Positions 47,728 to 59,960 of a stretch of 64,000 nt of DNA are shown in pieces. The notes beneath the pieces are model-generated. The model had not been told where the DNA came from and ran no database searches. It saw only the letters and a program-made list of their open reading frames with translations. Source of the DNA: Escherichia coli 042. Its GTDB lineage: Bacteria > Pseudomonadota > Gammaproteobacteria > Enterobacterales > Enterobacteriaceae. The stretch lies in the NCBI RefSeq assembly GCF_000027125.1, contig NC_017626.1; one strand, 5' to 3'. A program made the translations under genes and the position numbers. Within the stretch, counting starts at the first letter, position 1, and each line of letters opens with the position of its first letter.

Positions 47728-48174
47728 GGAGTTTACTCACATCTGACAAAATCAATATAAACAGCCCCTCCGGAGAGGGGCTGGAGAGTGGCGCTATGTG
47801 CCATTGCATGGTGCCGGGTGCCTCCCGGTGAATTCAGTACCAGCACCTGAATCCGCGATTATCCCATATACCTACTCGCTGATTGCCCCTCCGCACAGGG
47901 GGATTCACCATGCCAGTTTCTTTTAACAAACTCCCCGCAAACCAGACAACAGTCAACCGCCTGAATTGTGAAGTATTTAAAAATTTCTCCCGCTAACTGA
48001 TACCCGGCTAACAGTCTGGCGTTTTCTTTTTCAGCAACGGGAAAGCAACAACCACCACACCCGCCACCAGCACACCGTCAGCCAGCACTGACATTATCCG
48101 GCTGCTGCAATGCCATTCACAAAAACAGTAAGCAATCACTTTTTACCGTAACAGGTGATAATCCAGATATGTAT

Positions 48175-48636: not shown

Positions 48637-48713
48637 TATGGCGCGCTGTACTGGATTCGAACCAGTGACCGATTGCTTAGAAGGCAATTGCTCTGTCCGG
48701 CTGAGCTAACAAC
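48637..48713 (-). tRNA. tRNA-Arg (anticodon UCU)
   Basis: Manually folded cloverleaf: acceptor GCGTTGT/ACAGCGC, anticodon stem ATTGC/GCAAT, loop CTTCTAA, T-loop GGTTCGAATCC, encoded CCA. Confidence 0.8.
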
Positions 48714-48815
48714 GCTGAATACCGATAATGGACCGCCATCGGGGACCCGCCCCCGCACCAACAACCCTGTTATCGTGTCGTCTGCTCTTCCTGATAAGCT
48801 AATGGCGGTTTGTGA

Positions 48816-48891
48816 TGGTGGCCCTTGCTGGATTTGAACCAGCGACCTGGCGATTATGAGTCGCTCGCTCTCACCACTGAGCTAAAGGGCC
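48816..48891 (-). tRNA. tRNA with CAU anticodon (Ile2/Met type)
   Basis: Acceptor GGCCCTT/AAGGGCC, anticodon loop CTCATAA, T-loop GGTTCAAATCC, encoded CCA. Confidence 0.8.
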
Positions 48892-51290: not shown

Positions 51291-51650
51291 TTACCTCCAG
51301 ATGCGTTGCTGGAATGTGCGGGACGGACGCGGTGGGCGTTCGGAGTGAGGCAATCTGACTGAGATTATCCAGTGACGGTAGTCGAGGCTAAGGGCTTTTT
51401 TAACCTCGTATCCGCGCCTGCGGTAACACTGAATTATCCATTCAGCCTGCTCTTCAGTGCATGGTGGATGCTGGAACCAGTCCGATTTGAATGCATGAAA
51501 ACGCCGTCCGCACCTGCTGGCAAAGACGGCAGAATCATCAGAATTGTGTAATTTGGTATCGTGCGCCATCGGTTGTCTCTGCTGGCGCAGCAGGTGCCAG
51601 TTGTTCAGGCTGGCGTGCGAATTGTAAACCAGAATGCCAGGAAAAAACAA
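51291..51650 (-). CDS. hypothetical phage protein
   Basis: 119-aa ORF; start may be the internal Met. Confidence 0.4.
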   Translation of the reverse strand: MFFPGILVYNSHASLNNWHLLRQQRQPMAHDTKLHNSDDSAVFASRCGRRFHAFKSDWFQHPPCTEEQAEWIIQCYRRRGYEVKKALSLDYRHWIISVRLPHSERPPRPSRTFQQRIWR

Positions 51651-51865
51651 AACCCGCCGAAGCGGGTATGCTAAAACAAACTGAAAGTAATATACCGGAC
51701 TTGTAAAGGAACGATAGAATAATTATTGGATTAAACCCTGACTCAATCCAGATTTCATAGGCAACAACTACGGACTAATCATCACAGTCATGTTTGATAG
51801 GCTTAGTCCACATTGGGTGAGGGTTTACGGCGTTTTCACTAATAATTTATCGTCCAAGCTATACA

Positions 51866-52258
51866 CTACTGCCCTGTTTTAACGAAGTTTTTAAAGGAAA
51901 CAACTGCCTGATAGGGGTTTGGTTGACAGCCAAACATATTATCGCAAAAAGGCTTGATGAAAATTCTTGAGGATCCATCTTCATTTGGCATTTTACTCAC
52001 TTGATAAGCGAGGAATGGACTATTTGGAGAGGGATTATAAGTGGAAATTAGCGTGTCTGTCGCCGTTTGAATTTTCCATGAGGAATTATTAGCCAACCAG
52101 AATTGCGCTCGTTTCCAATAAAAGTCACATTGCTTTTCATCATTACATGTTAGTGGCTTCATTGCTTCTGCTTTCAACGCTGGATCGACCTTTGCTGCAC
52201 ACCCTCCCAACATTACTGTTGCAATCATTACACCTGCGACTAAAACAAGTTTCTTCAT
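51866..52258 (-). CDS. putative lipoprotein (moron)
   Basis: 130-aa ORF with signal peptide and lipobox LGGC; AT-rich. Confidence 0.6.
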   Translation of the reverse strand: MKKLVLVAGVMIATVMLGGCAAKVDPALKAEAMKPLTCNDEKQCDFYWKRAQFWLANNSSWKIQTATDTLISTYNPSPNSPFLAYQVSKMPNEDGSSRIFIKPFCDNMFGCQPNPYQAVVSFKNFVKTGQ

Positions 52259-52401
52259 CTCCCTGCCCCATCAATAAAAGTTCGGTTCTCTAATAACTAG
52301 AGTTAATCAACGGAAAAAACGCCGAAGCGGGTTAAGTGCGGGTGCGTTGAGGATGCCTGACACATCAGAGGTGGCGAGGGATTTCTCCCCCGCCAGGTCT
52401 C

Positions 52402-52557
52402 TTACTCCTCAGGTTCGTAAGCTGTGAAGACAGCGACCTCCGTCTGGCCGGTTCGGATTCGTACCTCGCAGAGGTCTTTCCTCGTTACCAGTGCCGTCAC
52501 AATGACGGTTAAACAGATGACGATCAGGGCGATTAGCATCGCCTTTTGCTGCTTCAT
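52402..52557 (-). CDS. hok: Hok/Gef-family type I toxin
   Basis: 51-aa segment MKQQKAMLIALIVICLTVIVTALVTRKDLCEVRIRTGQTEVAVFTAYEPEE matches Hok-family toxins; the longer 70-aa ORF is the overlapping mok-like frame. Confidence 0.85.
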   Translation of the reverse strand: MKQQKAMLIALIVICLTVIVTALVTRKDLCEVRIRTGQTEVAVFTAYEPEE

Positions 52558-52848
52558 AGCCTGCTTCTCCTTGCCTTTCGGCGCGTAAGAGGCTAACCTA
52601 GATTTGCCGTTCATAGATTGAGCCTCAGATTAATGTTAAGCGTCTTGCAGGACGCGTAATGTTAACTGGGGCTTTTCTCTATCTGCCTTTTGGTGTTCAT
52701 GCCTGAGACAGATAGCCTCAAGCACCCGCTGCAATTCTACTTAACTCTCCTTTTCCCGCAAACCGTTTTTATCCCCAGCGGCAAATCGAATACACCACCA
52801 GCGCCACCGCCATCGCAATTCCTACCGTTGTTAATGCTTCAGGCCAGC

Positions 52849-54026: not shown

Positions 54027-54557
54027 TCACTCTCCTTTGATGCGAATACCAGTGGTACTCATTATCCTGATTTCCCAGAGCACACGAGGAACACCACCGT
54101 TTCCGACTGGATCGCGTTTACTCCGCAGGGCGACGCTTGATTCCGCCCAGCTTTTTCTTGGAGGAAGCTCTTTCACACGAACAAAACCAGCTGCGCGAAG
54201 AGATGCTCCTGATTCATCTGCCCGGGTGTACGTAATACAACGTTGATAACCCATAGCTTTTGCTGCCCGCCAGACAGCACCATAAAGCGCGCTGTTAGCG
54301 TTGCGTTCTCCTGTGGTACATGTGCGATTTACTTCAAGCGTTAATCCATCGTCCAAATGTCGTGCAACAGGTCTACCGGCTGTCGCCACACCTATCAATT
54401 CTCCGGCATCATTTCTCAGACCAATGCTGAATTTATGCCCCACCGGGGGTTTATTGTGTCGGTGATGTCTGGATATAAACGCCTTCGCAACACGAAGAGT
54501 AACCGGTGAAATTTGCATTCTCACTCTCCTTTGATGCCAATGTTTACAGACTGGCAA
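54027..54557 (-). CDS. hypothetical protein
   Basis: 176-aa ORF. Confidence 0.45.
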   Translation of the reverse strand: MPVCKHWHQRRVRMQISPVTLRVAKAFISRHHRHNKPPVGHKFSIGLRNDAGELIGVATAGRPVARHLDDGLTLEVNRTCTTGERNANSALYGAVWRAAKAMGYQRCITYTRADESGASLRAAGFVRVKELPPRKSWAESSVALRSKRDPVGNGGVPRVLWEIRIMSTTGIRIKGE

Positions 54558-59907: not shown

Positions 59908-59960
59908 TTTCTGGTGACGTTTGGCGGTATCAGTTTTACTCCGTGACTGCTCTGCCGCCC
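59908..59960 (+). ncRNA. dicF: DicF small regulatory RNA
   Basis: 53-nt sequence TTTCTGGTGACGTTTGGCGGTATCAGTTTTACTCCGTGACTGCTCTGCCGCCC followed by T-run terminator, upstream of dicB. Confidence 0.8.

What the first reader, a model, noticed from the sequence alone, without database searches (positions are those of the whole stretch)
51866..52258. Prophage lipoprotein moron next to the hok toxin
The 130-aa ORF has a signal peptide and LGGC lipobox, is AT-rich relative to flanking genes, and sits in the nin-like region. Prophage lipoproteins of this kind are often superinfection-exclusion or envelope-modifying factors.
Basis: inference. Interest (0 to 1): 0.45.

Follow-up and report, generated by a model that had tools for sequence, protein, structure and literature searches.

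The report
Uncharacterised prophage outer-membrane lipoprotein cassette
A real 130-residue lipoprotein gene sits as a separate AT-rich cassette just after the hok toxin gene of an E. coli prophage; it belongs to a large, unnamed family that phages and tiny plasmids carry, probably to alter the cell envelope against incoming phages, but its function has never been tested.

Summary
Window 51866-52258 (-) encodes a 130-aa protein with a signal peptide, an LGGC lipobox and Ala at +2, which predicts an outer-membrane lipoprotein. Its GC is 0.40 against about 0.54 in the flanks.

- **Cassette:** it is a 665-bp unit flanked by two copies of the hok terminator. The upstream copy has lost its stem and the downstream copy is intact. 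K-12 Qin has rem in this slot.
- **Distribution:** the gene is in 254 of 5426 complete E. coli genomes, always annotated "hypothetical protein".
- **Known families:** it is not related to Cor or Llp; only the signal peptides align. It has no Pfam, NCBIfam or PADLOC match.
- **Family:** it belongs to phrog_16082, an unnamed family of at least 1153 clusters. Nearly all members are lipoproteins with four further conserved cysteines. The AlphaFold model (pLDDT 94.8) shows a generic helix-grip/TBP-like fold (Flpp3, KA1, BamC-N).
- **Homolog contexts:** directly after the CI repressor, inside tail-tip modules next to J in at least four phage lineages (one fused to PDZ), on 2.5-8.6 kb ColE1 plasmids, and on Burkholderiales-type chromosomal contigs.

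Best reading, by inference: a lysogen-expressed envelope factor that blocks phage entry at the outer membrane. It works like Cor or Llp but is not a member of either family. Function is unproven.

The parts
51866..52258 (-). 130-aa prolipoprotein ORF (RefSeq WP_000737636.1, 'hypothetical protein'; phrog_16082). The mature protein is about 111 aa with four conserved Cys (C38, C44, C105, C111).
52199..52258 (-). Signal peptide (residues 1-19) and lipobox L17-G-G-C20. Ala at +2 predicts Lol sorting to the outer membrane.
   Evidence: Sequence. Of 154 family representatives, 143 have a lipobox; +2 is Ala in 111 and Asp in 1.
52259..52269 (-). Purine-rich ribosome-binding stretch (GGGGCAGGGAG) directly before the ATG.
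   Evidence: read from the sequence
52314..52332 (-). Upstream copy of the 19-nt repeat. It is the hok 3' terminator with its stem truncated (ACCCGCTTCGGCG-TTTTTT), and no hairpin is predicted. It marks the left edge of the cassette.
   Evidence: the same sequence is present in 49 of 50 IMG/VR E. coli loci
51640..51667 (-). Downstream, intact copy: an intrinsic terminator (ACCCGC-TTCG-GCGGGT followed by a T run; -13.1 kcal/mol, z -2.3). It marks the right edge of the cassette.
51668..51865 (-). AT-rich 3' untranslated part of the cassette (GC 0.37, 198 nt). It is 69 nt shorter in 9 of 50 related loci.
52402..52727 (-). Complete hok/mok/sok type I toxin-antitoxin locus immediately upstream. It is the inferred source of read-through transcription.

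Best explanation
The gene encodes a small lipoprotein that is exported, lipidated at Cys20 and sorted to the periplasmic face of the outer membrane. It travels as a single-gene accessory cassette (moron).

In this E. coli prophage lineage the cassette lies inside the terminator of the hok toxin gene. The terminator copy in front of the gene has lost its stem, and no sigma-70 promoter is visible in the 75-nt spacer. The gene is therefore most likely transcribed by read-through from the constitutive hok promoter in lysogens, and from the early rightward transcript during lytic growth. Transcription would stop at the intact terminator copy behind the gene.

Once in the envelope, the two-disulfide helix-grip domain most likely binds an outer-membrane component, or the entering tail-tip/tape-measure complex. 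That would block adsorption or DNA entry of incoming phages, and re-adsorption of progeny to debris. This is the job done by Cor and Llp, here done by an unrelated protein.

Shown: the gene is real and under purifying selection, with lipoprotein features, cassette anatomy, family size, predicted fold and recurrent contexts. Inferred: expression by read-through, outer-membrane location, and the exclusion function and its target.
For: Gene and lipoprotein features.

Cassette: a 19-nt direct repeat 665 bp apart. The upstream copy does not fold and the downstream copy folds at -13.1 kcal/mol. K-12 Qin has an intact terminator followed by rem at the same place. The architecture is kept in 46-49 of 50 viral contigs. 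The 701-bp locus, flanks included, is covered at 80% or more in 253 complete genomes; the gene itself is in 254. No promoter-like site lies in the spacer.

Lysogen-expressed or receptor-linked positions of homologs:
- Immediately downstream of a CI-type repressor (HTH_3 + Peptidase_S24) in four different Citrobacter prophage mosaics.
- Overlapping the stop codon of an HTH_3 repressor gene in L011.
- Between tail genes K/I and the host-specificity gene J in Pantoea-type prophages.
- In the tail-tip module of a GC-rich phage.
- As a PDZ fusion on a Klebsiella phage-plasmid.

An identical homolog is one of very few genes on 2.5-8.6 kb ColE1 plasmids of three genera. That implies a stand-alone selectable function.

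Precedent: lipoprotein genes inside the structural cluster of mEpimmI phages were shown experimentally to exclude phages that use the same receptor (PMC11893012). T5 llp and cor lie next to receptor-binding genes (established knowledge).
Against: - There is no experimental datum for any member of the family.
- There is no sequence or fold relation to any known exclusion protein.
- The family has chromosomal, non-phage members on Burkholderiales-type contigs, and AFDB relatives in many Proteobacteria. Its conserved surface motifs span distant taxa. Both fit a conserved cellular partner better than a variable phage receptor.
- In this window the gene is 36 kb from J, and this J differs at its C-terminus from the J proteins next to the close homologs.
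- Read-through from hok is inferred only from a lost hairpin and the lack of a consensus promoter.
Confidence: 0.4

Rival explanations
1. It is an envelope fitness or protection factor unrelated to phage entry. For example, it could protect against bacteriocins, type VI effectors, lysozyme-like muramidases or serum. It would do so by binding a periplasmic enzyme or an outer-membrane protein (a Bor/Iss-like or orphan-immunity-like role).
For: Carriage on tiny ColE1-type plasmids, the classic home of bacteriocin and immunity genes. Two disulfide-closed C-x5-C loops are conserved family-wide, a design seen in periplasmic inhibitors (my own knowledge, used as a lead only). Fusions to HtrA-type PDZ and to LysM point to envelope protein or peptidoglycan contacts. 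Chromosomal members exist outside phages.
Confidence: 0.27
2. It is a co-opted cellular envelope adaptor. The domain has a housekeeping-type role (binding an outer-membrane protein, the Bam/Lpt machinery or peptidoglycan). Phage copies would tune envelope physiology of the lysogen, for example vesiculation, permeability or stress signalling.
Confidence: 0.15
3. It is a lytic-cycle helper rather than a lysogenic-conversion gene. It would be made late with the tail genes to inactivate receptors on the dying cell so that progeny are not lost on debris, or it would affect lysis timing.
For: Position inside late tail operons in several phages. T5 Llp has this documented second role (established knowledge).
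Against: The post-CI position and plasmid carriage require a function outside the lytic cycle. In the window the gene is not in the lysis or tail module. The Rz-like spanin PHROG matches only the signal peptide (E 0.21).
Confidence: 0.12
4. It is an inert passenger: a decaying or unexpressed remnant with no current function in E. coli.
For: No recognisable promoter of its own. Occasional disrupted alleles occur: a frameshift variant P0012, one nonsense allele, and an IS end 5 nt before the ATG in L013.
Against: Strong purifying selection. 231 of 254 genomes carry a copy at least 99% identical, and 49 of 50 viral-contig copies are intact. The gene is present in sequenced induced phages.
Confidence: 0.06

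Closest known systems
Cor (phi80/N15/T1/HK022 superinfection-exclusion lipoprotein; phrog_1119)
   Same: A small phage-encoded outer-membrane lipoprotein carried as an accessory gene. Homologs of the present protein occupy the same kind of place, beside tail or host-specificity genes.
   Different: No homology. The PHROG match has E 0.007 and covers only residues 1-44, the signal peptide. The mature protein is larger (about 111 aa), with two conserved disulfide loops and a helix-grip fold. The target is unknown, and FhuA dependence is untested.
Llp (T5 lytic-conversion lipoprotein that inactivates FhuA)
   Same: Lipoprotein with a disulfide. Its gene is adjacent to the receptor-binding gene, as are the tail-module homologs here. 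It is the working model for how this protein might act from the periplasmic face.
Lpp021 / Lpp010 of mEpimmI coliphages (PMC11893012)
   Same: Lipoprotein genes inside the structural gene cluster of temperate coliphages. Expression was shown to exclude phages that use OmpA or LamB. This is the same genomic logic as the tail-module homologs here.
   Different: No detectable similarity. tblastn of the window protein against 50,697 phage records finds only two E. coli phages that carry the gene itself.
Flpp3 (Francisella DUF3568 lipoprotein), BamC N-terminal domain, KA1 / TBP-like / Bet v 1 helix-grip folds
   Different: Identity is 5-14%, and there is no Pfam or PDB sequence match. None has the four-cysteine pattern. 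The functions of Flpp3 and BamC-N are themselves unclear, so no mechanism transfers.
Lambdoid morons such as bor, lom and rem
   Same: A single gene with deviant GC and its own terminator, present or absent between otherwise similar prophages. It occupies the slot that holds rem in K-12 Qin.
   Different: No sequence relation to Bor, Lom or Rem. No promoter of its own was found. It is flanked by a duplicated terminator, which is not a described feature of those morons.

Membership tests
Bacterial lipoprotein (Lgt/Lsp/Lnt substrate) | N-terminal signal peptide ending in a lipobox [LVI][ASTVIG][GAS]C | tested here: met
   MKK, hydrophobic core, L17-G-G-C20. 143 of 154 family representatives have a lipobox.
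Bacterial lipoprotein (Lgt/Lsp/Lnt substrate) | Outer-membrane sorting: no Asp at +2 (E. coli Lol rule) | tested here: met
   +2 and +3 are Ala-Ala. Across the family, +2 is Ala in 111 of 143 and Asp in 1. This is a prediction only.
Bacterial lipoprotein (Lgt/Lsp/Lnt substrate) | Acylation and globomycin-sensitive processing | not testable with these tools
   Needs labelling or mass spectrometry.
phrog_16082 / unnamed four-cysteine lipoprotein family | Full-length profile match | tested here: met
   E 2.6e-84 over residues 1-130 of 130. 1153 cluster representatives at E<=1e-3 with a profile of the protein and its ten closest homologs.
phrog_16082 / unnamed four-cysteine lipoprotein family | Conserved C-x5-C ... 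C-x5-C pattern and the W48/W54 helix | tested here: met
   C44 and C105 are invariant. C38, C111, W48 and W54 are conserved in at least 90% of 112 sequences.
Cor superinfection-exclusion proteins | Sequence homology of the mature protein | tested here: not met
   phrog_1119 E 0.007, residues 1-44 only.
Cor superinfection-exclusion proteins | Exclusion of FhuA-dependent phages | not testable with these tools
   Needs plating assays.
T5 Llp | Sequence homology of the mature protein | tested here: not met
   hhalign aligns 20 signal-peptide columns only. The Llp sequence used was verified as 100% identical to the T5 records.
T5 Llp | Gene adjacent to the receptor-binding protein gene | tested here: not met
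   In the window the gene lies next to hok, 36 kb from J. The feature is met for homologs in L009, L063-L066, L127 and L132.
Moron (accessory transcription unit in a prophage) | Present or absent between otherwise homologous phage genomes | tested here: met
   K-12 Qin has rem at the same junctions. Flank sequence is in 4507 genomes but the gene in only 254 of 5426.
Moron (accessory transcription unit in a prophage) | Base composition different from neighbours | tested here: met
   GC 0.40 against 0.51-0.54.
Moron (accessory transcription unit in a prophage) | Own terminator | tested here: met
   Terminator at 51640-51667: -13.1 kcal/mol, z -2.3.
Moron (accessory transcription unit in a prophage) | Own promoter active in the lysogen | tested here: inconclusive
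   No consensus sigma-70 site lies between 52259 and 52400. Read-through from hok is inferred. Needs RNA data.
Known anti-phage defence systems (PADLOC) | Match to any model | tested here: not met
   0 families at E<=10.
Bor/Iss, o-spanin Rz1 | Sequence homology or lysis-cassette position | tested here: not met
   No NCBIfam or Pfam match. The Rz-like PHROG has E 0.21 over the signal peptide only. The lysis genes lie elsewhere, at about 45-46.4 kb.
DUF3568 (Flpp3) / BamC | Family-level sequence match | tested here: not met

The most novel reading that the evidence does not exclude
The protein is the E. coli representative of a new, widespread family of stand-alone superinfection-exclusion lipoproteins, structurally unrelated to Cor and Llp. 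Temperate phages, phage-plasmids and miniature ColE1 plasmids pass the family around. It acts from the periplasmic face of the outer membrane on a conserved step of siphophage entry (tail tip or tape measure passage, or a conserved receptor feature), sometimes helped by a fused PDZ domain. In E. coli it is expressed by capturing the constitutive hok promoter through decay of the hok terminator.
Probability: 0.3. Interest if true: 0.65.

Novelty: new variant of a known kind. Interest (0 to 1): 0.4.

Why it matters
If the exclusion role is confirmed, it would add a third, structurally distinct class of outer-membrane exclusion lipoproteins. It would also give a function to more than a thousand unnamed protein clusters found in prophages, phage-plasmids and small plasmids of Enterobacterales and other Proteobacteria.

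About 5% of complete E. coli genomes carry the gene, so it could affect phage host-range predictions and phage-therapy cocktails.

The duplicated and decayed hok terminator is a concrete, testable example of how a moron can acquire expression in the lysogen without a promoter of its own. If instead the protein protects against bacteriocins or alters the envelope, it is still a clean single-gene handle on an unknown envelope function.

Tried and rejected
- **Cor/Llp homology:** rejected. Only the signal peptides align.
- **Family libraries:** Pfam, NCBIfam, PADLOC and PDB sequence searches gave nothing. NCBIfam and PHROGs on ten distant members gave only PDZ hits and the same two unnamed PHROGs.
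- **Word-indexed protein search with the family profile:** returned few hits and no names.
- **The search for related loci with the 112-sequence alignment:** failed for lack of a conserved stretch. Narrower alignments mostly re-found the E. coli copies.
- **Link to the prophage's own J:** tested and not found. The J proteins next to tail-module homologs form one family (52-94% identity). The window's J matches them only over the N-terminal two thirds or so, with weak or no match at the C-terminus.
- **Own promoter:** none in the spacer. The single promoter-like site, 52063-52034 (-), lies inside the ORF and is within chance expectation.
- **Literature:** no paper mentions WP_000737636 or WP_032201349. 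Phrase searches for phage- or prophage-encoded lipoproteins found nothing on this family.
- **Chromosomal neighbourhoods of Burkholderiales-type members:** no conserved partner gene.

Full report
**Observation**

Window 51866-52258 (-) is an ATG-initiated ORF of 130 codons. The product starts with MKK, a hydrophobic core and L-G-G-C20, followed by Ala-Ala. This is a standard prolipoprotein signal with no Asp at +2, so by the E. coli Lol rule it is predicted to go to the outer membrane. A purine-rich ribosome-binding stretch precedes the ATG.

The ORF has GC 0.40 and GC3 0.37. The hok/sok locus has 0.51 and the DUF968 gene 0.54. Upstream lies a complete hok/mok/sok locus. Downstream follow a phrog_1212 ORF, DUF968/HNH, RusA and the Q antiterminator. 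The description "nin-like region next to hok" is therefore correct.

The ORF is a real gene. Against homologs of 73-85% protein identity, non-synonymous differences are 0.11-0.15 per site while synonymous sites are saturated at 0.82-0.95.

**Anatomy of the cassette**

A 19-nt direct repeat flanks the gene, 665 bp apart.

- The downstream copy (51649-51667 plus a T run) is a good intrinsic terminator: ACCCGC-TTCG-GCGGGT, -13.1 kcal/mol, z -2.3.
- The upstream copy (52314-52332) is the 3' terminator of hok with the last Gs of the stem missing. No hairpin is predicted there.

Alignment with the Qin prophage of K-12 shows near-identity through hok up to the middle of this terminator. A window-specific segment of about 690 bp follows, where K-12 has rem. 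Homology resumes just after the second terminator copy.

The same architecture is present in 46-49 of 50 E. coli-type viral contigs. The gene occurs in 254 of 5426 complete E. coli genomes, always chromosomal and always annotated "hypothetical protein" (WP_000737636.1). The flanking sequence occurs in 4507 genomes. The gene is also in two sequenced induced phages.

No sigma-70 consensus lies in the 75 nt between the decayed terminator and the ATG. I therefore infer that the gene is transcribed by read-through from hok. hok mRNA is made constitutively in characterised hok/sok loci (established knowledge). During lytic growth it would be covered by the antiterminated early transcript. This step is inference, not observation.

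**Family**

Pfam, NCBIfam, PADLOC and PDB sequence searches give nothing. PHROGs gives a full-length match to phrog_16082 (E 2.6e-84) and a weaker one to phrog_4186. Both are of unknown function.

An exhaustive profile search finds 1153 cluster representatives at E<=1e-3 and 537 at E<=1e-10.

- Of 154 full-length representatives, 143 have a lipobox. The +2 residue is Ala in 111 and Asp in one.
- Four further cysteines form two C-x5-C pairs (C38/C44 and C105/C111). They are invariant or nearly so, as are W48 and W54. This fits two periplasmic disulfide-closed loops, which is inference.
- About half of the longer members sampled (12 of 25) carry a C-terminal PDZ domain of the DegP/DegS type.
- AlphaFold-database relatives are annotated only "Lipoprotein". 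They come from Burkholderiaceae, Xanthomonadaceae, Vibrio, Shewanella, Pseudomonas, Nitrospira and others, with occasional PDZ or LysM fusions.

**Structure**

With a 112-sequence alignment the model reaches pLDDT 94.8 and pTM 0.82. After the signal peptide the order is: a short helix, a short strand, a long helix, a four- to five-stranded antiparallel sheet, and a C-terminal helix.

Identities are 5-14%. No known exclusion protein, lysozyme inhibitor or immunity protein appears in the top 60. The fold therefore says [quoted passage not shown] and no more.

**Where relatives sit**

This is the most informative evidence.

1. A Citrobacter subfamily (44% identity) lies immediately downstream of, and in the same direction as, a CI-type repressor (HTH_3 + Peptidase_S24; phrog_4/6201). 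This holds in four prophages whose other early genes differ. Another member overlaps the stop codon of an HTH_3 repressor gene. These are positions transcribed in lysogens.
2. The closest non-E. coli relatives (73-85% identity) lie in lambda-like tail-tip modules. Some sit between gpI and gpJ, others between gpK and gpI beside a second lipoprotein.
   - A 38%-identical member in a GC-rich phage lies between small tail genes and a 1313-aa J-like protein.
   - A PDZ-fused member on a 54.5-kb Klebsiella plasmid lies directly before a tail assembly gene and a 4052-aa J-like gene.
3. An identical 126-aa homolog is one of three to five annotated genes on 2.5-4.6 kb ColE1/Rop plasmids of Citrobacter and Salmonella. 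It is also on larger relatives, 5.3-8.6 kb, in Citrobacter and Enterobacter.
4. Members with a disordered C-terminal tail lie among ordinary chromosomal genes on metagenomic contigs. I call these Burkholderiales-type by their resemblance to the AFDB Burkholderiaceae members.

The gene is thus a self-sufficient module that mobile elements repeatedly place where it is expressed in the carrier cell, or next to the host-recognition gene.

**Mechanism**

The pattern matches that of receptor- or entry-blocking lipoproteins.

- T5 llp lies beside the pb5 gene, and cor lies beside tail genes (established knowledge).
- Lipoprotein genes in the structural cluster of mEpimmI coliphages were shown to exclude phages using OmpA or LamB (PMC11893012).

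I therefore take the most likely function to be an outer-membrane-anchored periplasmic protein that blocks adsorption or DNA entry (confidence about 0.4).

Points against:

- No homology to any known exclusion protein.
- Conservation across distant taxa and the chromosomal members suggest a conserved partner.
- There is no link to this prophage's own J.

Rivals:

- A protection factor against bacteriocins, muramidases or effectors (0.27).
- A co-opted envelope adaptor (0.15).
- A purely lytic-cycle role (0.12).
- An inert passenger (0.06). This last one is disfavoured by selection and by the intactness of the copies.

**Comparison and verdict**

The protein may work like Cor or Llp but is a member of neither family. 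It fulfils the moron criteria except for a demonstrated promoter. It is best filed as an uncharacterised family (phrog_16082) of a known kind of element, so "new variant of a known kind".

Interest is moderate (0.4). Nothing here overturns expectations. The family is large, structurally well predicted, easy to test with a single clone, and has an unusual duplicated-terminator insertion that suggests how it is expressed.

Noticed in passing
window 52314-52332 and 51649-51667: The lipoprotein cassette is bracketed by a duplicated hok terminator. The upstream copy has lost its stem. It is not resolved whether this reflects insertion with target duplication or recombination between two terminator-bearing loci.
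   Followed up: partly
L129 (NZ_CP141253.1, 2519 bp), L130, L131: An identical 126-aa homolog (WP_032201349.1) is one of very few genes on ColE1/Rop plasmids of 2.5-8.6 kb in Citrobacter, Salmonella Kentucky and Enterobacter. A divergently oriented 69-aa ORF of unknown function lies beside it in L129 and L130.
   Followed up: partly
L132 (K. pneumoniae pSMKP03S, 54.5 kb) 3-662: A PDZ-fused homolog runs across the record start and is unannotated. It lies directly before a tail assembly gene and a 4052-aa J-like 'carbohydrate binding' protein, so this plasmid looks like a phage-plasmid.
   Followed up: partly
L006 7662-7997 and L063 6374-6784: In two prophage types the homolog is paired with a second, unrelated lipoprotein gene (phrog_10370 and phrog_890), forming small lipoprotein islands.
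   Followed up: no
window 54027-54557 (-): A 176-aa ORF matches the Mom-like DNA modification protein family (phrog_1384, E 2.9e-42) in the early region of the same prophage.
   Followed up: no
window 47753-47942 (-), 48642-48891 (-), 59909-59960 (+): Rfam matches: STnc100 sRNA (132 bits), two tRNA genes downstream of Q, and DicF antisense RNA (77 bits). These are typical of Qin-like prophages.
   Followed up: no
L013 1-331: In one viral contig an IS629/IS3-family end lies 5 nt upstream of the lipoprotein ATG and replaces the hok side of the cassette. The IS identity is from memory and was not tested.
   Followed up: no
window 51668-51865 (-): The gene has a 198-nt AT-rich 3' untranslated stretch before the terminator. 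Nine of 50 related loci have a version 69 nt shorter. No function was looked for.
   Followed up: no
window 52034-52063 (-): A promoter-like site (GCGACA-18-TATAAT, 10 of 12 matches) lies inside the lipoprotein ORF. The number of such sites in the region is below the shuffle expectation, so it is probably chance.
   Followed up: no
cluster look-up: The 90% cluster that holds this protein also contains many Hok toxins. Its representative is an 87-aa partial sequence, so this is a clustering artefact that can mislead name transfer.
   Followed up: no
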